From a virus, in IMG/VR virus record IMGVR_UViG_3300017917_004503, positions 32,001 to 96,000 of that record: a stretch of DNA of 64,000 bases. The stretch is one strand, 5' to 3'. A program made the position numbers and the translations under genes. The notes beneath the pieces are model-generated. The model worked only from the letters and a program-made list of their open reading frames with translations. It did no database searches and was not told the DNA's origin. Within the stretch, counting starts at the first letter, position 1, and each line of letters begins with the position of its first letter. Below are positions 14,316-64,000 of the stretch, in pieces.

Positions 14316-14921
14316 ATGGAAATCTCACTATCAACCGGAAGCTTTAGTACCTTTCTAGATTTTAACATTTTAGAATCCGGACTCATTGATGTAAACAACT
14401 GGAAGATCTCCCACAACAAAAATGATGGATTCAAAACTATCAAATGGGATAATTCTGAATATCTCAATCCTGAACTATTAACTCTACACGAAAACCAGAA
14501 ATTACTTAGGAATGATTTGATCTATTTAAAAATGGCTTCAATCTGGGGAAAAAATTCACATTGCAAAAGAATGCAAGTCGGGTGTCTTATGGTAAAAGAT
14601 AAATCTATTATATCTGACGGTTATAACGGATCACCCACAGGATTTCCTAATATTTGTGAAGATCAAGATATGACGACTTTACCGTATGTTTTACATGCAG
14701 AGGCCAATGCAATTACTAAATTAGCCAAAAGCACCCAAAGTTCAGATGGATCTACAATATATGTAACACTATCACCCTGTTACGAATGCTCTAAGTTAAT
14801 TATTCAATCAGGAATTAAAAGAGTAGTTTTTAATGAATTATATAGAAAACCTGAGTCTCTTCAATTTCTTTTTGAAGCAGGTATCGAAATTGTAAAAATA
14901 TCTAACCTTAACCAAATTTAA
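14316..14921 (+). CDS. dCMP deaminase
   Basis: SHCKRMQVG, GYNG, HAEANAI, SPCYEC zinc motifs. Confidence 0.93.
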   Translation: MEISLSTGSFSTFLDFNILESGLIDVNNWKISHNKNDGFKTIKWDNSEYLNPELLTLHENQKLLRNDLIYLKMASIWGKNSHCKRMQVGCLMVKDKSIISDGYNGSPTGFPNICEDQDMTTLPYVLHAEANAITKLAKSTQSSDGSTIYVTLSPCYECSKLIIQSGIKRVVFNELYRKPESLQFLFEAGIEIVKISNLNQI

Positions 14922-14927
14922 GTTCAC

Positions 14928-15539
14928 ATGCAGCAATCTAAGGAAACCAACATTCAAAAATTAGCTGAAGATTTTATCAGCAAAAAAACCGACAAATCCT
15001 TTGCGGATCTTTTTAATCGTCTCAAACCCGGGGTTTCCAATCATTGTTTTCTCATTCTCAAGGACACTGAGCTTGCAGAGGATGCCTTTTTAAACACCAT
15101 GTCTAAAGTTTGGCAGAAGATAGATCAGTATAAATTAGAGAGAGGTAATTTTTCTACCTGGTGTTACAATATTGCCCGAAATGAATCTCTTTTACTAATG
15201 AAATCCAGAAAAAAACTGGTTAACCATGAAGAAATAGATTTAGAGTTTCTATCATCTAAAAACACCCTTGGGGAAATAGGCGGAGTTTACACAATAGAGG
15301 ATGATCCAGCATACGCATTCTTCAGTGAGGAGAACACCATCGACTCTGTCTATGAGTCTGTTTTGGACGAGATCAGATCATTACCCGAAACCTATAGAGA
15401 TATTATGATAGACCGTGAGATCCACGGTATGAAATATAAAGATATAGCTGATAAATATGGCATAAAGAAAAGATCGATTGCTACCAGAATCAGAAGAGCT
15501 AGAGGTAGAATAAGAAAGAAGATTGACGAGAAACAATAG
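14928..15539 (+). CDS. ECF-type RNA polymerase sigma factor
   Basis: Region 2 AEDAFLNTMSKVWQKIDQY...FSTWCYNIARN; region 4 LPETYR...GMKYKDIADKYGI...IATRIRRAR. Confidence 0.88.
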   Translation: MQQSKETNIQKLAEDFISKKTDKSFADLFNRLKPGVSNHCFLILKDTELAEDAFLNTMSKVWQKIDQYKLERGNFSTWCYNIARNESLLLMKSRKKLVNHEEIDLEFLSSKNTLGEIGGVYTIEDDPAYAFFSEENTIDSVYESVLDEIRSLPETYRDIMIDREIHGMKYKDIADKYGIKKRSIATRIRRARGRIRKKIDEKQ

Positions 15540-22503: not shown

Positions 22504-22863
22504 ATGGCTAAGGATTACGTAAAAAATAGCGATCTAATGGTTGCTATAATAGAATCAAAAAAAGCAGGCAAGCTAACACCCGATGCCATTGCTATGTTTG
22601 GACTTATGATACAGGGAATATCAAAGAAAATGGCATATAAGGATCCAGAAGATAAAGAGGACTGTATGGCTTTTGCTATGGAGGATCTTTGCAAATATTG
22701 GGATAGATTTAATCCTGAAAAATCAAATAACCCTTTTGCTTATTTCACACAAATTGCAAAAAATGGATTTGCAAAGGGATGGAAAAAAATACATCCACCA
22801 AAAAGTCCAAAAACTATACCGTTTAGTCATATTACAGGAGAAGATAACACATATAACATCTAA
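22504..22863 (+). CDS. Late-transcription sigma factor (T4 gp55-like), short form
   Basis: YVKNSDL and FNPEKSNNPFAYFTQIAKNGF gp55 signatures. Confidence 0.85.
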   Translation: MAKDYVKNSDLMVAIIESKKAGKLTPDAIAMFGLMIQGISKKMAYKDPEDKEDCMAFAMEDLCKYWDRFNPEKSNNPFAYFTQIAKNGFAKGWKKIHPPKSPKTIPFSHITGEDNTYNI

Positions 22864-22865
22864 AG

Positions 22866-23351
22866 ATGACCGATATTAAAAAGGTAAAACCTAATGGAGA
22901 GTATAAGTCTGGTTTATATGAACCACAAAATCCAGAAAAGTACATAGGAGATATTCACAATATCATATTTAGATCGTCTTGGGAATATAGATTTTGTGTA
23001 TACTGTGATACTAATGAATCAATATTAAAATGGAGTTCAGAACCTCTTAAAATACCGTATTACAATCCTCTGGATAAAAAGGAACATGAATATAATGTTG
23101 ACTTTTATGTCAGAGTTTTAAAAGAATCTGGTGAAGAACAAGAGTGGATCTTAGAGATTAAGCCCGAAAGACAAACAAAAAAACCGGTATTTGAAGGAAT
23201 AACTACTTTACAGAAACTGAAATCGTATAATCATAATATGCAGATCTGGATTACGAACCAATCTAAGTTTAAAGCTGCAAAACACTGGGCTGAGAAAAGA
23301 GGTTTTAGATTTGGTGTCGTTGATGAAAATTTCTTATTTAAGAGTAAATGA
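22866..23351 (+). CDS. Head completion nuclease (gp4-like, TnsA-like fold)
   Basis: PQNPEKYIGD..NIIFRSSWE, KWSSEP, IPYYNP.D, VDF, EIKP, N..KF.AA. Confidence 0.85.
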   Translation: MTDIKKVKPNGEYKSGLYEPQNPEKYIGDIHNIIFRSSWEYRFCVYCDTNESILKWSSEPLKIPYYNPLDKKEHEYNVDFYVRVLKESGEEQEWILEIKPERQTKKPVFEGITTLQKLKSYNHNMQIWITNQSKFKAAKHWAEKRGFRFGVVDENFLFKSK

Positions 23352-23962: not shown

Positions 23963-25561
23963 ATGGCCGGTTTTGTAAATAATAACGATCCCCAACAGTC
24001 ACCAGTAATTACCAGAATTAGAGATTCTGTGAGAAAGCTGAGCACTTTCGGGATGAAGTATGATGATATGGTCATACGAAACTCTCAGGCAGTTGGTGTT
24101 ACTGAAGCAGCATTCTTAAACAAGAATAAATCCAATGTTGAGGATGAAAGTATGCTATGGACTCTTGCGAAGCAAGATATTACATCAAAGCAGTATGTTT
24201 CATATTTCGATAAAGATTATAAGGGTAAAAGAGATTACCTAAGAAAATTCTCTCTTAATCCTGAAATAGAATGGGTTTTAGACACTGTGTGTGATGAGAC
24301 TATTTCTTACGATCCTGCCAATTTTTTTGCTTATCCTGATTTTTTAGACCTGTCAGACATCAACGAAAAACTAAAGGATTCTCTTTATGAGACGTATCGA
24401 AAACTATATGATGTTTGGGGATTCTCTGATGATATAACTGCATGGCAGTATTTTAGACAATTCCTCGTTGATGGATTTCTTTGTTTCGAAATTATCTATG
24501 ATAATGAGGGAAAGAATATAATAGGATTTAAAGAATTAGATCCTGTTACTATAGTACCTAGCGTAGAAAAGCAAGTAGACGGAAGTTTTTTAAATACCTG
24601 GACCCAATTTCCACAGGATCCAAGAAGAAGACGTGTTCTATATGATCCCCAGATTATTTATATCTCGTATGCTAAGGGCAATTCAATTTCCAGAATAAGT
24701 TATATCGAAAGATTAATTCGTCCTTATAATATCCTTAGAATCATCGAATACACCAGAATTATCTGGTCTGTTATGAATGCTTCTTTTAAATTGAAGATGA
24801 CTGTTCCTATTGGTACTAAATCCCAACAAAAAGGAATGCAAACTCTAGGAGAATTAATGAGCATCTATAAGGAAGACGTTCAATTGAATGATGAAAGTGG
24901 TGAATTGTTTATAGACGGAAGACCTAAAATTCAGTTTTACAAGAATTACCTAATGCCTTCTGGAGTAAACGGAACGCCAACAATTGAACCTTTAACAACA
25001 GAGGGTCCAAACTTAAATGACCCTGCTCCTTTATCATATTTCTTTGATAAGTTTGTACAAGAATCTAAGGTACCTCCATCAAGATTCACTGGTCCAGATG
25101 GAACTAATGCTTCGACCTACACAAATGCTGCTGAGGGATTGGATAAAGAGGAGATTAGATTTGCTAAATTTGTAGAAAGACTTAGATCTATATTCCAGGA
25201 GATATTAACTAAACCTCTGTGGATACAAATGGCTAAAAAATATCCTGAGTTAGAGAAGGACTTTATGTTTAAGAGCCAGCTAGGTCTCGATTATTTTTCA
25301 GATAACCCGTTTAAAATAAACCAAGAAATTGAAGTAATTAATAAAAGAAAAGAATCAGTAACAGCTATGTCAGGTTTACTTGATGATGAGGATAAACCCT
25401 TTTTCTCAGTTCCTTTCCTAATTGAAAATTTCTTAGGAATTTCTAGACAGGATATTGTAGCAAATAAAGAAGCCAAAGAAAGGAAAGAGAAGGAGAAAAA
25501 GAAAGATAGTAAAAAAGATGAAGGCGAAAAAGAGGGTGGAGAGGAAAGCATAACTTTATAA
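23963..25561 (+). CDS. Portal protein (gp20-like), copy 1
   Basis: PEIEWVLDTVCDE, FRQFLVDG, LDP, SYIERLIRPYNILRIIE, VPPSRF, EEIRFAKFVERLRSIF; GATATATA at 23908. Confidence 0.9.
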   Translation: MAGFVNNNDPQQSPVITRIRDSVRKLSTFGMKYDDMVIRNSQAVGVTEAAFLNKNKSNVEDESMLWTLAKQDITSKQYVSYFDKDYKGKRDYLRKFSLNPEIEWVLDTVCDETISYDPANFFAYPDFLDLSDINEKLKDSLYETYRKLYDVWGFSDDITAWQYFRQFLVDGFLCFEIIYDNEGKNIIGFKELDPVTIVPSVEKQVDGSFLNTWTQFPQDPRRRRVLYDPQIIYISYAKGNSISRISYIERLIRPYNILRIIEYTRIIWSVMNASFKLKMTVPIGTKSQQKGMQTLGELMSIYKEDVQLNDESGELFIDGRPKIQFYKNYLMPSGVNGTPTIEPLTTEGPNLNDPAPLSYFFDKFVQESKVPPSRFTGPDGTNASTYTNAAEGLDKEEIRFAKFVERLRSIFQEILTKPLWIQMAKKYPELEKDFMFKSQLGLDYFSDNPFKINQEIEVINKRKESVTAMSGLLDDEDKPFFSVPFLIENFLGISRQDIVANKEAKERKEKEKKKDSKKDEGEKEGGEESITL

Positions 25562-25562
25562 G

Positions 25563-27215
25563 ATGGCAGGATTTTTAGATCTATTTAAACCAAACGAATC
25601 TGCTTTAGGTAACATTCTTAGAAACCTAGGCAAAGTCTCCAAATTTGGGATGGAGTACGATGATATGGTTGTTCGTAATTCTCAAGCAATAGGTAAAAGC
25701 GAAGGATCCTTTTTTAATCAGCAGGGGACTGGGTTTACTCAGGATGATGCTTTTTATTGGACTCTTTCTTATCAGGATACGAAGGTAAGAAAATACATAG
25801 CTTATTTTGATAAGGATTATATTGAAAAAAGAAACTTTCTGAGAAAATTTTCACTCAATGGTGAGATAGAATTTATTTTAGATACTATCACTGACGAATG
25901 TATAACCTATGACGATAGAAATTTTTTCGCAAATCCTTCTTTCATAAATCTTGATTTGAAAGAGAAAATTCTAAATAAAATAACTTCACATTACAATCGC
26001 CTTTATAACATTTTTGGATTTCAGAATTCTATTTTGGCTTGGCAATTATTTAGACAGTTTCTTATTGATGGATTTTTAGCTTTTGAAATAATATACGACA
26101 ACAAAGGAAAAGAAATTATTGGATTTAAAGAATTGGATGCAACCTCTTTGCAGCCAGCAGTAGAAAGAGTTGGTGAAAATGAGTACAAACAATTTTGGAT
26201 TCAATACCCAAAGAATCCTCAGATGACTAGAAAACTCACTAATGAACAGGTTATCTATATTTCTTATGCCAAGGGTAATAGTATTTCCAGAGTTAGCTAT
26301 ATAGAAAGATTAGTAAGATCATATAATATTTTGAGAATCATGGAGAATTCCAGGGTAATCTGGAATGTTATGAATGCTTCTTATAGATTAAAGTTTGTAA
26401 TACCAACTGGAAGCCAGTCTCCTCAAAAAGCTATGCAAACATTAGGACAGTTAATGTCAAATTATAAAGAGGAGATAAGCATAAATGATGCTTCTGGTGA
26501 ATTGACTGTAAACGGAAGACCTAAAGTCCAATTTTACAAAAATTATTTATTTCCTGAAATGAATGGACAATCTCCACAAATTTCATCACTAAATCCTTCC
26601 GGTCCTGATTTTAACGTTATGGAAAATGTTGTTTACTTCTATAATAAGTTAAAAATGGACTCTAAACTTCCTTATGCTAGATTTGCAGCTAGAAGTGCAG
26701 GTCCTTCTAATTATAAGGTAAGTATTGATGCTCTTGAAAGAGATGAGATACGTTTTGAAAAGTTTCTCCGTAGATTGAGATCTATATTTCAAGAAATTTT
26801 GGTTAAACCTCTTTATATACAAATGTGTTTAGATTTTCCTGAATTATCTAGAGATAGAAGCTTTAAGGTTAATCTTGGATTAGATTTTCACAGAGAAAGT
26901 GAATTTGAAGAAATGGTTCAGCTTTCGAATTACACTAAAAGAAGTGAATTTATCAAAGGACTCTATGAATTTAAAATTAAGGCTGGTGATGAGGAAAAGC
27001 CATATTTTGATAATGACTTTCTAATTCAGAGATTTCTAGGTCTGACTCCAGATCAGATTAAAATGAATGAAGAATATAAGAAGAAAGAGGAAAAACAAGC
27101 ACCACAAGCTAAACCTGCCAGTGGAGAAGGCGAATCACCAGAAGGAGAAACGTCAACCCCTCCAGAGGGAGAAGCTCCAGAGGGAGAAGCTCCGGAACCA
27201 GAAGTAACACTTTAA
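25563..27215 (+). CDS. Portal protein (gp20-like), copy 2
   Basis: Same motif set (FRQFLIDG, SYIERLVRSYNILRIME, RDEIRFEKFLRRLRSIF); full length. Confidence 0.9.
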   Translation: MAGFLDLFKPNESALGNILRNLGKVSKFGMEYDDMVVRNSQAIGKSEGSFFNQQGTGFTQDDAFYWTLSYQDTKVRKYIAYFDKDYIEKRNFLRKFSLNGEIEFILDTITDECITYDDRNFFANPSFINLDLKEKILNKITSHYNRLYNIFGFQNSILAWQLFRQFLIDGFLAFEIIYDNKGKEIIGFKELDATSLQPAVERVGENEYKQFWIQYPKNPQMTRKLTNEQVIYISYAKGNSISRVSYIERLVRSYNILRIMENSRVIWNVMNASYRLKFVIPTGSQSPQKAMQTLGQLMSNYKEEISINDASGELTVNGRPKVQFYKNYLFPEMNGQSPQISSLNPSGPDFNVMENVVYFYNKLKMDSKLPYARFAARSAGPSNYKVSIDALERDEIRFEKFLRRLRSIFQEILVKPLYIQMCLDFPELSRDRSFKVNLGLDFHRESEFEEMVQLSNYTKRSEFIKGLYEFKIKAGDEEKPYFDNDFLIQRFLGLTPDQIKMNEEYKKKEEKQAPQAKPASGEGESPEGETSTPPEGEAPEGEAPEPEVTL

Positions 27216-58185: not shown

Positions 58186-60477
58186 TTGCTTGCAACAGAT
58201 CAACAAAGAAGTTTATTCCTCAAGGGATTTAAACTTTCAAACCAAGGAAAATATGAAGATCCAACTTATCTAGGATTTAAGATAGTTTTCGATTTCGGAG
58301 TTTTACCTGTGAGAGCTGACGATGGGTTAGCTCCAAGTCCTCTTTTTAGGATAGGAAGTTATGAGGATCAACAATTTTTTCCTTTAAATCCATTTGCTCA
58401 ACCACAGTATTCGTATAAGACTGGTCCTAATATAGCTTATTATTCCGCTGCTGAATACCTCAGACAAAGAGAGCAAAACTTTCCCCGTGGTGGAAAGAGG
58501 GCAGATATGTTGATTCAGTTTCGTAATTTATTAAACGATCTTGTTTCAAATTCACCATGGTTTTTACAATCTATCGATGGTTTGGACCAATTGGAAAAAG
58601 TAGAGCGTCCAGGATTTCCCACATTGGATATCGGTGGTTTTGATCCACAGAGAACAGGTAATAAGGTATTAACTTTCAACACTTTAGAGTCTCTGAATTT
58701 AAGAATGACTGCTTTAGCTGATCTTTATAATCAGGCTACTTTTGATTATGATAATATGAGGGAACTAGTCCCTAGGAATCTCCGAAGATTTACGATGTTT
58801 ATCTTCGTTCAAGAAATTAGAAATTTCTTTAAAACTTCTAGATTGATTGGTTCTTCTGCAGCTTTAACTTCACTCAACAATCTATCTGATCTACTGGGAG
58901 CAGGTAATAATCCTGGCAGTAATCTCGGAGCAGCTACTAACATAGCGAATCAGTTTGGACAGGAATTTGGTCAAGCTAATTCTGGTGGTGGAGGACCATT
59001 ATCTTCTTTTGTAGGTAACGTATTTAATAATTCTGGTGTTGATAATGACTATGCTATATTCACAAATCAGCAGGATCAAAGCGGGATTAAGCCAATGCTA
59101 ATCTATGAATGCAGAAATTGTGAATTTGATTTTAGCGACAGTACACCAATACCTAGCTCTATAAACGTTGGTGTTGATACAGCTACACCTGTTGGACAGA
59201 GCTTTAGAATTTTGGTTGGAAAGGTTAGAAAGAAGAGTCAATATCCAAATATCAGGCAAGATGGAAAGCCCTTAATTCTTGCTGATAGCTGGGATTCTTC
59301 TCGCTCGTCTGTTCAAAAAAATCCACAAGACACGAATGACATCTTATCTATTGGCGAAGAGCTTTTAACTAACTTTGTAAGTAATTCACTAAACGATCTT
59401 ATTAACGAAGGTATAAATAATTATGTTCTACCTGCGATTGCAGGAGCAGATAGATTAGCCTTAGGTAATGTTTATAGTTTAGATCCTGGACAGATCTTAT
59501 CAGATCTATCCTTTAACAATGCACAGAATTTTCTAAATCAATTGGGTAACGTCTCTGAAATTTCACTTCCTAATCCACAGACTTTAGGACAAGGTGGACC
59601 TCCAGAGAGGGTTTATATTAAACCAACTGGTGACGTTTATGCACAGGTTCCAGGAAGAGATCTTGGTGTTCCTGAAAGAGTTTACGTTAAGCCTAGTGGA
59701 GATTCCTATCCTGATGTACCAGGAAGGGATTTAGGGGTTCCTGGAAGAGTTTATAATACTCCATCTGGTGATGCCTATCCTGATGTTCCTGGTAAGGATC
59801 TCGGTGTTCCAGATAGAGTTTACACTCCACCTTCAGGTGATGCCTATCCTGATGTTCCAGGAAGAGATCTTGGTGTTCCTGATAGAGTTTATCCTTTACC
59901 AACTGGTGATGTCTATCCTGATGTTCCAGGAAGAGACCTCGGTGTTCCAGATAGAGTATATCCACCATCAACCGGAGATGTTTACACCGACGTACCTGGT
60001 AGAGATTTAGGTGTTCCTGATAGGGTTTACGGTAAGCCAGGAGGAGATGTTTATTCGAATGTTCCTGGTACAGATTTAGGTGTTCCTGATAGAAATTACA
60101 ATAAACCTCAGGGAAAGGTTTATCCTGATTCCCAGCCTTCTCCTAAATTAGGTGAATCGCAGGTTTATCCTGATTTTATTCCATCATCTCCTATCGATAT
60201 TTCGTCTCAAAGAGTTTATACAGATACTCCAAAAGTTAGTTACAACGGAGAACTGAGAGATGAATCTAATACTTTCTCGAGTAATCCTGGAAGAGTCTAT
60301 CCTGTCAACAAACCTTTTTCTGGTCAGAGTAGAGGAGATATCGGAAAGGCTTATCCTGAGACTACAGGAGATTTCATAATCGAAAAACCTTTAAATCTAG
60401 GAAATCTTAAACCAGAAGACAAATATAATATTAGTCTGGGACAAAACAATCCAGATCCTAATCAATTTGAAGATTAA
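58186..60477 (+). CDS. Baseplate/tail protein (possibly gp54-like) with C-terminal Pro/Gly repeat
   Basis: GATAAATA at 58157; EDPTYLGF, PWFLQSIDGL, NLRRFTM; within baseplate block. Confidence 0.5.
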   Translation: MLATDQQRSLFLKGFKLSNQGKYEDPTYLGFKIVFDFGVLPVRADDGLAPSPLFRIGSYEDQQFFPLNPFAQPQYSYKTGPNIAYYSAAEYLRQREQNFPRGGKRADMLIQFRNLLNDLVSNSPWFLQSIDGLDQLEKVERPGFPTLDIGGFDPQRTGNKVLTFNTLESLNLRMTALADLYNQATFDYDNMRELVPRNLRRFTMFIFVQEIRNFFKTSRLIGSSAALTSLNNLSDLLGAGNNPGSNLGAATNIANQFGQEFGQANSGGGGPLSSFVGNVFNNSGVDNDYAIFTNQQDQSGIKPMLIYECRNCEFDFSDSTPIPSSINVGVDTATPVGQSFRILVGKVRKKSQYPNIRQDGKPLILADSWDSSRSSVQKNPQDTNDILSIGEELLTNFVSNSLNDLINEGINNYVLPAIAGADRLALGNVYSLDPGQILSDLSFNNAQNFLNQLGNVSEISLPNPQTLGQGGPPERVYIKPTGDVYAQVPGRDLGVPERVYVKPSGDSYPDVPGRDLGVPGRVYNTPSGDAYPDVPGKDLGVPDRVYTPPSGDAYPDVPGRDLGVPDRVYPLPTGDVYPDVPGRDLGVPDRVYPPSTGDVYTDVPGRDLGVPDRVYGKPGGDVYSNVPGTDLGVPDRNYNKPQGKVYPDSQPSPKLGESQVYPDFIPSSPIDISSQRVYTDTPKVSYNGELRDESNTFSSNPGRVYPVNKPFSGQSRGDIGKAYPETTGDFIIEKPLNLGNLKPEDKYNISLGQNNPDPNQFED
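59626..60108 (+). repeat. 7 x 69-bp (23-aa) tandem repeat xGDVYPDVPGRDLGVPDRVYxxP
   Basis: Counted directly in the translation. Confidence 0.9.
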
Positions 60478-60479
60478 TT

Positions 60480-61181
60480 ATGCCGAGTGAAAGAGTCTAT
60501 TTGGGTCAAATCGTAGATAATAAAGATCCCTTATACCAGGGAAGAGCAAGGGTAAATGTTTTTGGTTTTTTCGATGGAATACCGACTGAAGATCTACCTT
60601 GGGCAGAGCAGATAGCTGGACTTTCCTTTGATGGAGGATTCGGAGGCGGAAATATCTCTATTCCTAGAATAGGTACTGTTGTTGCTGTTCATTTTGAGGA
60701 GAATAATTACTATAAAATGAATTATCACTACATTAAAGAGATCTCTCCTTCGTTATTAGAAGAGCTTAAACAAGAAAATTCATACGAGGGTACTCAATCA
60801 ATAGTCTATGACACCGAAGCTCAGCCAGGCACACTTAAAATGATTTATACGAGGAAAAATGGTTTGGTCTTTCAATTAGGTGATGCAACAATTCAACTTG
60901 ATACACAGAATGCTGGAACTGATAAAGAAAAACTCAGAATCAAGATAAAGATGAATGATGATGAGATTAGAATGGAGAAGAATGCGGGTAAGCAAAAAGT
61001 AATTATCAAGTCTGGAAACATAGAGCTAGGTGAAGAAGCTGTTGAAAAAATTATTTTAGGTAGCACCTTTTTGGATTTCTTTAATAAGCATACACACCCA
61101 ACCGGGGTTGGACCATCTGGTGTTCCCGTGATACCTATGATAGATCAAGTTCATTTAAGTCAAGTTTCAAAAACTAAATAA
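60480..61181 (+). CDS. Baseplate central spike (gp5/gpV-like OB fold)
   Basis: VDNKDPLYQGRARV, LPWA, IPRIGTVVAVHF, C-terminal HTH metal-binding motif FNKHTHP. Confidence 0.85.
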   Translation: MPSERVYLGQIVDNKDPLYQGRARVNVFGFFDGIPTEDLPWAEQIAGLSFDGGFGGGNISIPRIGTVVAVHFEENNYYKMNYHYIKEISPSLLEELKQENSYEGTQSIVYDTEAQPGTLKMIYTRKNGLVFQLGDATIQLDTQNAGTDKEKLRIKIKMNDDEIRMEKNAGKQKVIIKSGNIELGEEAVEKIILGSTFLDFFNKHTHPTGVGPSGVPVIPMIDQVHLSQVSKTK

Positions 61182-62889: not shown

Positions 62890-62948
62890 AAACCGGAACT
62901 TATTGGTGGATATATACTAAGATTGTTTAACTTCTTAATAAAAAAAAT

Positions 62949-64000
62949 ATGACTGATTTTCTCAAAGAAAACGAACCAAAAACAAACGACTTTAACTGGG
63001 ACATTCAAAATGGGATCAAACCCAACAAGAAATTGAAGAGAGTTCCTGCAGGATTCAAGGTGTTCTGTCATGAACCTTATGCACAGGCTATGCTAGATTC
63101 CTACAACCAATTTTTTTCAGGATCCTCCCAAGTTGATGAATATGCTAAGGATTTATCCGAAGGTATGGTTTATTCTTGTAGGATTGTAGTTCTGAAAGAA
63201 GACGAGGCACTAGCACAAACTTCGACAGGACAAACTATCTACATTGATCTAAAGAAAGAGAAAAAAGACGCGGAAAAGCTCAATATTAGCGGCTTAACAT
63301 TTAACATCGGAGATACAGTTCAGGCTAGGATTAGAGTTTCTAATTCTAACTATTATGGTTCTGTTATTGAATATTATATCCACAGCTTGAGACTGGAACT
63401 TTTTGAACAAATCAAAAAAGAAAACAGTGCTTATAGAGTAAAAATCGAAAGCATAAATAAGGGCGGATACATCGTAGATCTTTCTGGTATTAAGTGCTTC
63501 TTACCAGGTTCGTTAGCTGCGGCAAACAGAATTACCGATTTTGAATCATATTTAGGTAAAGAAATCCATGTTATGATCGAGGGATATGTTGAGTCTAAGG
63601 ACATTTTTATAGTTTCTTACAAGAAGTATCTTAGTAAAATTATGGAATCTAAGATACAAGAGCTTGATTTAACTAAAAAATATAAAGGATTCGTTACTGG
63701 AACTAGTGAGTTTGGAGTTTTTGTTGAATGGGAGGAAGTTTACACTGGTCTTATTCATAAAACAGAATTCTTAGAGGATTCTGAGCTTACTTCAATCCAT
63801 CCTGGAGACGAGATTGAATTTTACGTTAAAGAGATCAAGGATAACAATCGTCTTACTTTAACTCTAGAGAAACCTTTAGAAAGAAATGTAATTATCCAAG
63901 ATTTAGATAATCAAATTAAAGAAGGATCTATTGAACCACAAGAAGCGCGTATTAAGCACAGAAGAAAAAATGGAATTCTCGTTGACTTAATTAATCTTGG
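62949..64000 (+). CDS. rpsA: Ribosomal protein S1 homolog (truncated by window end; absent from ORF track)
   Basis: Own translation: MTDFLKENEPKTNDFNWD...INKGGYIVDLSGIKCFLPGS...IVSYK...YKGFVTGTSEFGVFVEWEEVYTGLIHKTE...PGDEIEFYVKEI; no stop through 64000. Confidence 0.88.
   Translation, partial: MTDFLKENEPKTNDFNWDIQNGIKPNKKLKRVPAGFKVFCHEPYAQAMLDSYNQFFSGSSQVDEYAKDLSEGMVYSCRIVVLKEDEALAQTSTGQTIYIDLKKEKKDAEKLNISGLTFNIGDTVQARIRVSNSNYYGSVIEYYIHSLRLELFEQIKKENSAYRVKIESINKGGYIVDLSGIKCFLPGSLAAANRITDFESYLGKEIHVMIEGYVESKDIFIVSYKKYLSKIMESKIQELDLTKKYKGFVTGTSEFGVFVEWEEVYTGLIHKTEFLEDSELTSIHPGDEIEFYVKEIKDNNRLTLTLEKPLERNVIIQDLDNQIKEGSIEPQEARIKHRRKNGILVDLINL

What the first reader, a model, noticed from the sequence alone, without database searches (positions are those of the whole stretch)
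62909..64000. Phage-encoded ribosomal protein S1 under a late promoter
Seen: an open frame from ATG 62949 to the window end encodes successive S1 OB domains (KGGYIVDLSGIKCFLPGS; GFVTGTSEFGVFVE...GLIHKTE). It has an N-terminal DFNWD resembling Bacteroidota RpsA, and the late motif GATATATA lies at 62909. Established: S1 captures A/U-rich leaders, Bacteroidota mostly lack Shine-Dalgarno initiation, and S1 homologs have been reported in huge phages. Inference: the phage swaps in its own S1 late in infection to bias ribosomes toward its A-rich structural-gene leaders (e.g. AAACAATA-ATG, ACCACAAATC-ATG).
Basis: partly seen in the sequence, partly recalled or inferred. Interest (0 to 1): 0.8.

Follow-up and report, generated by a model that had tools for sequence, protein, structure and literature searches.

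The report
Phage four-domain ribosomal protein S1 copy
A large uncultured phage, probably of Bacteroidia bacteria, carries a shortened four-domain copy of ribosomal protein S1 among its baseplate and neck genes, under a late-type promoter; such phage S1 genes were reported in 2020, and whether they act on ribosomes is still untested.

Summary
ATG 62949 opens a 395-aa gene that runs 136 nt past the window end. Its product has four tandem S1/OB domains, collinear with domains 1-4 of bacterial bS1. The N-terminal F-N-W motif matches the [DNQ]F[DN]W motif of class Bacteroidia RpsA. That motif is absent from E. coli and from 30 RpsA loci of the same phylum.

GATATATA at 62909 is not chance. It occurs 24 times on the + strand and 0 on the - strand, with 18 copies in 7 kb of intergenic DNA (0.66 expected). 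It precedes neck, sheath, tube, portal and protease genes. It is kept upstream of S1 in relatives whose S1 is only 27-65% identical. A gp55-like late sigma is present.

The protein is not a full RpsA: it scores 76 bits against a 577-bit cut-off and lacks domains 5-6. It belongs to a very large family of about 390-aa proteins; every context examined was a big phage contig or record (Lak phages, LR7565xx huge phages). The gene usually sits between the baseplate hub and the neck gene.

Ribosome docking and selective late translation are inferred, not shown. Al-Shayeb et al. proposed this in 2020, and this scan has found the same gene on other genomes. I class it as a new member of a known kind.

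The parts
62909..62916 (+). GATATATA, late-type promoter element 40 nt before the S1 start codon
   Evidence: Strand-specific (24 vs 0) and enriched in intergenic DNA (18 vs 0.66 expected). The exact octamer lies 30-45 nt upstream of S1 in L004, L008, L017 and L018, while the flanking sequence differs. It also precedes neck, sheath, tube, portal and protease genes.
62949..64000 (+). S1-like gene, residues 1-350 of 395; the gene ends at window-equivalent 64136 (L001:1501-2688)
62991..62999 (+). F-N-W motif (residues 15-17), shared with the N-terminal extension of Bacteroidia RpsA
   Evidence: W17 invariant and F15 at least 90% conserved in 22 family members. The motif is found in 116 of 119 close relatives. 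It aligns with FDW of Bacteroidia RpsA by hhalign. It is present in 9 of 10 low-scoring RpsA of the phylum sample and absent from the 30 others and from E. coli.
63072..63116 (+). Predicted helix (residues 42-56, 'PYAQ..L.D.Y'), candidate uS2-docking helix
   Evidence: DSSP helix 42-56 in the model, at low pLDDT. Y44 and A45 are invariant. hhalign places H41-S51 on E. coli M1-S12, so Y44 pairs with Phe5, A45 with Ala6 and Q46 with Gln7; column confidence is low there. Phe5, Phe9 and Gln7 are uS2 contacts in E. coli (PMC10123108).
63147..63362 (+). OB domain 1 (residues 67-138)
   Evidence: 17 invariant positions
63432..63617 (+). OB domain 2 (residues 162-223) with the bS1 domain-2 signature KGGY.V...GI.CFLPGS; the most conserved part
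63678..63863 (+). OB domain 3 (residues 244-305), a canonical S1 domain with FGVFV, GLIH and D..R
   Evidence: Best Pfam S1 stretch, residues 244-304; 34 invariant positions in 227-310. That these residues bind RNA is from general knowledge of S1 domains.
63939..64000 (+). Start of OB domain 4 (residues 331-392, ending outside the window). It is divergent: the aromatic residues are replaced and a basic K-H-x-R-x-N-G patch is invariant.
22504..22863 (+). gp55-like late sigma factor (region 2 only, 119 aa), the presumed reader of GATATATA
   Evidence: Pfam Sigma70_r2, E 7.6e-6; phrog_234 'late sigma transcription factor', E 4e-16
60480..61181 (+). Baseplate hub (gp5-type OB domain) gene, the conserved upstream neighbour
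   Evidence: phrog_430, E 1e-16; Pfam Phage_base_V; synteny

Best explanation
The gene encodes a phage version of ribosomal protein bS1, cut down to the N-terminal docking segment plus domains 1-4.

Shown:
- The protein is collinear with the first ~370 residues of Bacteroidia RpsA and of E. coli RpsA.
- It keeps the Bacteroidia-specific F-x-W extension, a helix aligned with the uS2-binding helix of E. coli bS1, the domain-2 signature and one canonical S1 domain (domain 3).
- It belongs to a large family of about 390-aa proteins; every context examined was a phage contig or record.
- It has its own copy of a motif that otherwise precedes virion genes.
- The phage has a gp55-type late sigma and no Shine-Dalgarno sites.

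Inferred: late in infection the gp55-type sigma transcribes the gene together with the virion genes. The protein docks on uS2 of host 30S subunits, in place of or in competition with host bS1. Through domains 3-4 it captures the A-rich, SD-less leaders of phage mRNAs, keeping or favouring their initiation. Whether it selects phage messages over host ones is the least supported step.
For: - Family and fold: Pfam S1 at 56 bits and rpsA models matched collinearly. The best PDB sequence hits are all bS1. The AF2 model has four OB domains, and the top Foldseek hits are E. coli bS1 on the 30S (9gut_B, E 5.6e-22, 363 columns).
- Collinearity: hhalign against Bacteroidia RpsA gives prob 99, E 4e-17, residues 4-395 on 1-378, with FNW on FDW. 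Against E. coli it gives prob 97.6, residues 40-395 on 1-363, with YAQ on Phe5-Ala6-Gln7.
- Docking precedent: in E. coli the first 106 residues suffice for 30S binding through uS2 (PMC10123108).
- Tree: the phage clade (99*) is sister to F-x-W-type RpsA, SH-aLRT 92.
- Conservation: more than 1000 homologues; 126 clusters at 50% identity with E below 1e-30, median length 390 aa.
- Position: fixed synteny of hub, ~600-aa gene, S1, amidoligase-like gene and gp13 neck gene, down to 27% identity, including LR756500. S1 is retained even where synteny is lost, in Lak-C1 and LR756501.
- Promoter. Virion genes behind the same motif. Late sigma.
- No SD sites and A-rich leaders.
Against: - It scores far below every curated rpsA cut-off (76 vs 577 bits).
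- Domains 5-6 are missing.
- Domain 4 has lost the usual aromatic RNA-binding residues.
- Phe9 of E. coli corresponds to Met or Leu, and that part of the alignment and of the model has low confidence.
- S1 domains occur in many non-ribosomal proteins, a caveat stated in PMC6375957 and PMC7162821.
- The branch to the phage clade is very long, so its position next to Bacteroidia RpsA is unsure.
- There is no expression, ribosome-binding or host data.
Confidence: 0.6

Rival explanations
1. It is an extraribosomal RNA-binding protein. A bS1-derived scaffold would act off the ribosome as an RNA chaperone, mRNA protector or cofactor of a phage enzyme, much as host S1 serves Q-beta replicase and T4 RegB.
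For: [quoted passage not shown] The score is below the rpsA cut-offs. Domain 4 is divergent and carries an invariant basic patch. In E. coli, domains 1-2 also mediate binding to Q-beta replicase (PDB 4q7j and 4r71 appear among the hits).
Against: The F-x-W extension specific to Bacteroidia RpsA and the helix aligned to the uS2-binding helix are conserved. That is hard to explain without a ribosomal partner. Domain 2, which lies at the mRNA exit site in E. coli, is the most conserved part.
Confidence: 0.22
2. It is a virion-packaged protein. It would be made late, loaded into the particle and delivered with the DNA, so that it acts on host ribosomes or RNA from the first minutes of the next infection.
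For: The gene sits at a fixed place between the baseplate hub and neck genes, under the same motif as virion genes. The same idea was raised for phage bS21 (PMC9723584).
Against: Position in a late operon does not show packaging. In Lak-C1 and LR756501 the gene lies away from the hub and neck genes. No virion proteome exists. This reading is compatible with the best explanation and does not exclude it.
Confidence: 0.12
3. It is a structural OB-fold part of the baseplate, or a cellular gene brought in by misassembly or recent capture.
For: The neighbours are baseplate genes, and OB folds occur in hub proteins.
Against: The similarity is specific to bS1, not to hub OB domains. The same gene and neighbours recur on contigs up to 434 kb and in published phage genomes. 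Cellular RpsA do not appear among the best 150 cluster representatives.
Confidence: 0.03

Closest known systems
'Possible rpS1' genes of huge phages (Al-Shayeb et al. 2020, Nature, PMC7162821), including LR756500-LR756504, LR745206 and the Lak phages of Prevotella
   Same: They are homologous by tblastn (E 1e-13 to 1e-32). The portal finds the same records as nearest relatives. LR756500 has the same hub, S1, amidoligase and neck order. The genomes share the lack of SD sites, and the same hijacking hypothesis was proposed.
   Different: This record is smaller: 151 kb held, 52% complete by CheckV, so roughly 290 kb. The paper mentions proteins with up to six S1 domains and does not describe the four-domain architecture, the F-x-W docking end, the fixed place in the virion module or the dedicated late-type promoter. 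I read only parts of the paper, not its supplements.
Ribosomal protein bS1 (RpsA) of class Bacteroidia
   Same: N-terminal [DNQ]F[DN]W motif, a helix before domain 1, and collinear domains 1-4. It is the sister group in the tree.
   Different: The cellular protein has about 590-690 aa and six domains. The phage protein lacks domains 5-6, has two insertions in the N-terminal region, is about 23-27% identical and has a divergent domain 4.
E. coli bS1, whose N-terminal helix and domain 1 dock on uS2 (PMC10123108)
   Same: Best structural match. [FY]-A-Q lies at the start of the helix, and the domain-2 KGG...FLPGSL signature is shared.
   Different: E. coli has no F-x-W extension. Phe9 is Met or Leu in the phage. 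Binding was not tested for the phage protein.
Phage-encoded bS21 of Bacteroidetes phages, expressed with late genes (Chen et al. 2022, PMC9723584)
   Same: A small-subunit protein of the mRNA exit and platform region, encoded by large phages of SD-less hosts and associated with structural genes.
   Different: It is a different protein. bS21 expression was shown by metatranscriptomics, whereas nothing of the kind is available for S1 here. No bS21 gene is found in this record.

Membership tests
Bacterial ribosomal protein bS1 / RpsA (NCBIfam TIGR00717 and PRK06299 models) | Whole-protein score over the curated cut-off | tested here: not met
   76.2 bits against a 577-bit cut-off for TIGR00717; every other rpsA model is also far below cut-off. 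The genome search gave 66.5 bits.
Bacterial ribosomal protein bS1 / RpsA | Tandem S1 domains collinear with domains 1-6 | tested here: inconclusive
   Domains 1-4 are collinear with Bacteroidia RpsA (1-378) and E. coli RpsA (1-363). Domains 5-6 are absent, and the protein ends after domain 4. NCBIfam also files shorter proteins as S1 (models of 391 and 318 positions).
Bacterial ribosomal protein bS1 / RpsA | N-terminal helix with aromatic residues that docks on uS2 | tested here: inconclusive
   Helix 42-56 is predicted at low pLDDT. Y44, A45 and Q46 align with Phe5, Ala6 and Gln7, but Phe9 aligns with Met or Leu, and column confidence is low. Y44 and A45 are invariant.
Bacterial ribosomal protein bS1 / RpsA | Physical association with the 30S subunit | not testable with these tools
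This needs bench work.
Pfam S1 RNA-binding domain (PF00575) | Score over the gathering threshold | tested here: met
   56.1 bits against 22, with two stretches passing. Domain 3 alone scores 34.2 bits; domains 2 and 4 alone are below threshold.
Phage S1-like family of huge phages ('possible rpS1', Al-Shayeb 2020) | Homology to the S1-like genes of published huge phage genomes, in a phage of the same clade | tested here: met
   tblastn hits in LR756500-04, LR745206 and 15 Lak genomes. The portal's best hits are the same records. Shared synteny with LR756500. The phage rows form one clade at 99*.
T4-type late transcription unit (gp55 sigma with a single -10-like element) | A gp55-type sigma in the genome and a strand-specific upstream motif shared with virion genes | tested here: met
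   phrog_234, E 4e-16. Motif statistics. The motif lies upstream of sheath, tube, neck, portal and protease genes and is conserved upstream of S1 in relatives.
T4-type late transcription unit | Transcription starts at the motif and occurs late in infection | not testable with these tools

The most novel reading that the evidence does not exclude
The four-domain S1 is not an occasional host-derived accessory gene. It would be an old, vertically inherited core gene of the Lak / huge-phage lineage of Bacteroidia. In this reading it is made from a dedicated late promoter, possibly loaded into the virion, replaces host bS1 on uS2, and gives ribosomes a preference for phage leaders through its altered domain 4.
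Probability: 0.3. Interest if true: 0.65.

Novelty: new member of a known kind. Interest (0 to 1): 0.38.

Why it matters
Bacteroidia start translation without Shine-Dalgarno pairing, and bS1 is thought to matter most in such organisms, yet its role there is unresolved (PMC7797042). This is a compact phage S1 that keeps the Bacteroidia docking end, is conserved across more than 1000 homologues, and has a defined promoter. That makes it a convenient reagent for asking how bS1 sits on the Bacteroidia ribosome, and whether a virus can reprogramme initiation by exchanging it. The gene class and the hypothesis are already published, so the gain here is detail and testability rather than discovery.

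Tried and rejected
- PHROGs has no family for the S1 protein or for the amidoligase-like neighbour.
- The scan of 185,579 species genomes found only two relatives. Both are contigs in metagenome bins, one labelled Saprospirales; this is at most a weak host hint and may be a binning artefact. That bin lacks rpsB.
- The 151-kb record has no tRNA and no bS21 gene, but it is only about half a genome.
- I considered that S1 and the amidoligase-like gene form an obligatory functional pair, because of the 8-nt ATGACTGA overlap. I rejected this as a general rule. In LR756501 the S1, amidoligase and gp13 genes lie at about 684, 241 and 455 kb, and Lak-C1 has S1 but no detectable amidoligase.
- The PDB entries named 'Ribosomal protein S1 homologue' (28jw, 28lu, 9tvu) looked like a possible phage structure, but 9tvu is the Chlamydomonas chlororibosome.
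- Sigma-70-type promoter matches around the gene are at chance level, and no terminator-like site lies between the upstream gene and S1.

Full report
**The sequence**

The frame from ATG 62949 is open to the window end. The window is bases 32001-96000 of a linear 151,373-bp virus record that CheckV rates 52% complete, which suggests a genome near 290 kb. In the record the gene ends 136 nt beyond the window and encodes 395 aa (P0001). Of the 127 ORFs I called, 124 are on the + strand. The gene lies in a virion block. Upstream are a gp5-type baseplate hub and a 568-aa gene. Downstream are an amidoligase-like gene, a T4 gp13-type neck gene and baseplate-J-like genes.

**What the protein is**

- Sequence families: Pfam S1 scores 56 bits (cut-off 22). 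Every NCBIfam rpsA model matches collinearly but far below its cut-off (76 vs 577 bits for TIGR00717). The best PDB sequence matches are all bS1.
- Fold: an AlphaFold2 model built on 22 relatives has mean pLDDT 74.6. It shows four OB barrels (74-138, 162-223, 244-305, 331-392) after a poorly predicted 65-residue N-terminal part that contains a helix at 42-56. Foldseek ranks E. coli bS1 on the 30S subunit first (9gut_B, E 5.6e-22 over 363 columns).
- Collinearity with Bacteroidia RpsA: profile alignment of the family against RpsA with the F-x-W motif gives probability 99 and E 4e-17. Residues 4-395 align with 1-378 of the cellular protein.
- Collinearity with E. coli RpsA: residues 40-395 align with 1-363, which is the docking helix plus domains 1-4.
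- Domain detail: domain 2 carries the bS1 signature KGG...FLPGS. Domain 3 is a canonical S1 domain. Domain 4 has lost the aromatic residues and has an invariant basic patch. Domains 5-6 are absent.
- Conservation is highest in domains 2 and 3, with 38 and 34 invariant positions among 22 relatives. The N-terminal part has 4 and domain 4 has 9.

**The N-terminal motif**

- I sampled 41 genomes of the phylum of a Saprospirales bin that carries a related phage contig. The 30 RpsA that score highest on the general rpsA model have no such motif.
- 9 of the 10 lower-scoring RpsA, plus the Saprospirales protein, have [DNQ][FY][DN]W about 30 residues before domain 1. I read this group as class Bacteroidia.
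- E. coli lacks the motif.
- In the phage family W17 is invariant, and 116 of 119 close relatives have the motif. Among more distant cluster representatives about a third keep it.
- Many family members keep the following '...Y-C-x-E-x-Y-A-Q-x-L-Y-D' helix.
- In E. coli, Phe5, Phe9 and Gln7 of the first helix contact uS2, and the first 106 residues suffice for 30S binding (PMC10123108). The alignment puts Y44, A45 and Q46 on Phe5, Ala6 and Gln7, with low column confidence.
- Ribosome docking is therefore a reasonable inference, not a result.

**The family**

- Size: the protein has more than 1000 homologues with E at or below 1e-5 in the near-length search. The best 120 are 323-402 aa and 56-100% identical, on contigs up to 434 kb.
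- Diversity: in the library clustered at 50% identity, 126 representatives score below 1e-30. The 118 of the best 150 that have at least 340 aa have a median length of 390 aa. The best 150 are 101-501 aa, too short to be the 580-690-aa RpsA seen here.
- Published relatives: matches occur in the huge phages LR756500-04 and LR745206 and in 15 Lak phage genomes. The portal protein finds the same records as its nearest relatives.
- Tree: in a quick maximum-likelihood tree the phage proteins form one clade (99*) on a long stem, sister to the F-x-W-type RpsA (SH-aLRT 92, not starred). Long-branch effects cannot be excluded, and only one phylum plus E. coli was sampled.

**Gene order**

The order hub, ~600-aa gene, S1, amidoligase-like gene and gp13 neck gene is kept in relatives whose S1 is only 27-30% identical, including LR756500. 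In Lak-C1 and in the 735-kb LR756501 these neighbours are not within 12 kb of S1. In LR756501 the three genes are hundreds of kb apart. S1 is thus retained with or without its usual neighbours.

**The promoter**

- Statistics: GATATATA occurs 24 times on the + strand and never on the - strand. 18 copies fall in the 7,013 intergenic bases, against 0.66 expected.
- Genes behind it: it lies 10-64 nt before the starts of neck (Hc2), sheath, tube, portal, prohead protease and many unnamed genes.
- Conservation: the exact octamer stands 30-45 nt before the S1 start in L004, L008, L017 and L018, although the surrounding spacer is not conserved. LR756500, Lak-C1 and LR756501 do not have it there.
- Sigma factors: the genome encodes an ECF-type sigma and a 119-aa, region-2-only sigma that matches the PHROG 'late sigma transcription factor'.
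- Calling the motif 'late' rests on this homology and on the genes it precedes. No timing data could be obtained.

**Translation signals**

Only 5 of 123 genes have GGAG or GAGG at -20..-4, below the 7.5% background. Leaders are 50-65% A at -11..-16. This fits a host that initiates without SD pairing, as Bacteroidia do (PMC7797042).

**Comparison with what is known**

- Al-Shayeb et al. 2020 listed S1 among the ribosomal proteins of huge phages. They noted that phages with possible rpS1 rarely have SD sites, cautioned that 'true' rpS1 is hard to confirm, and proposed a role in initiation on or off the ribosome.
- Mizuno et al. 2019 set S1-domain proteins aside as ambiguous.
- Chen et al. 2022 showed late co-expression for phage bS21 and raised virion packaging.
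- The finding is therefore a further, well-supported member of a published kind.
- The points that go beyond the passages I read are the four-domain architecture, the Bacteroidia-type docking end, the size of the family, the fixed locus and the conserved promoter.
- This scan has already reached the same reading on other genomes. I treated those notes as leads only.

**Verdict**

I class the finding as a new member of a known kind, of moderate interest. The mechanism is untested.

Noticed in passing
L003:1880-3283 (window-equivalent 64129-65535, just past the window end): A 468-aa amidoligase-like gene (P0278) whose ATG overlaps the S1 stop codon (ATGACTGA). The Pfam Amidoligase_2 match is weak (E 0.014), and the nearest Atlas clusters are all viral. 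It is more conserved than S1 at the same distance (about 35% vs 27% identity), but it is not always next to S1.
   Followed up: partly
window 58186-60477: A 763-aa protein with about eight tandem copies of a proline-rich unit of the type 'P.GD.Y.DVPGRDLGVPDRVY', directly upstream of the baseplate hub. It matches no family in Pfam or PHROGs.
   Followed up: no
window 23963-25561 and 25563-27215: Two adjacent genes of similar size (532 and 550 aa). The first is a portal protein (phrog_213, E 3e-54). The second was not tested, so this may be a tandem portal pair.
   Followed up: no
window 22866-23351: A TnsA-like endonuclease N-terminal domain protein (E 5e-18) lies directly after the gp55-like late sigma gene.
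   Followed up: no
window 14316-15539: A dCMP/cytidine deaminase gene is followed by a phage ECF-type sigma factor (regions 2 and 4). Together with the gp55-like sigma, this means two phage sigma factors in one genome.
   Followed up: partly
L008 (CALAZP010000190.1, 64.2-kb contig in a bin labelled Saprospirales): A related phage contig (S1 54% identical, same neighbours) is binned with a Saprospirales genome. This is either a host hint or a binning artefact.
   Followed up: partly
MK250029.1 308613-309266 (Lak-C1): The gp13-like match in Lak-C1 contains 7 in-frame TAG codons, in line with stop-codon recoding in Lak phages. The Lak S1 homologue (L020:11521-12630) has none.
   Followed up: no
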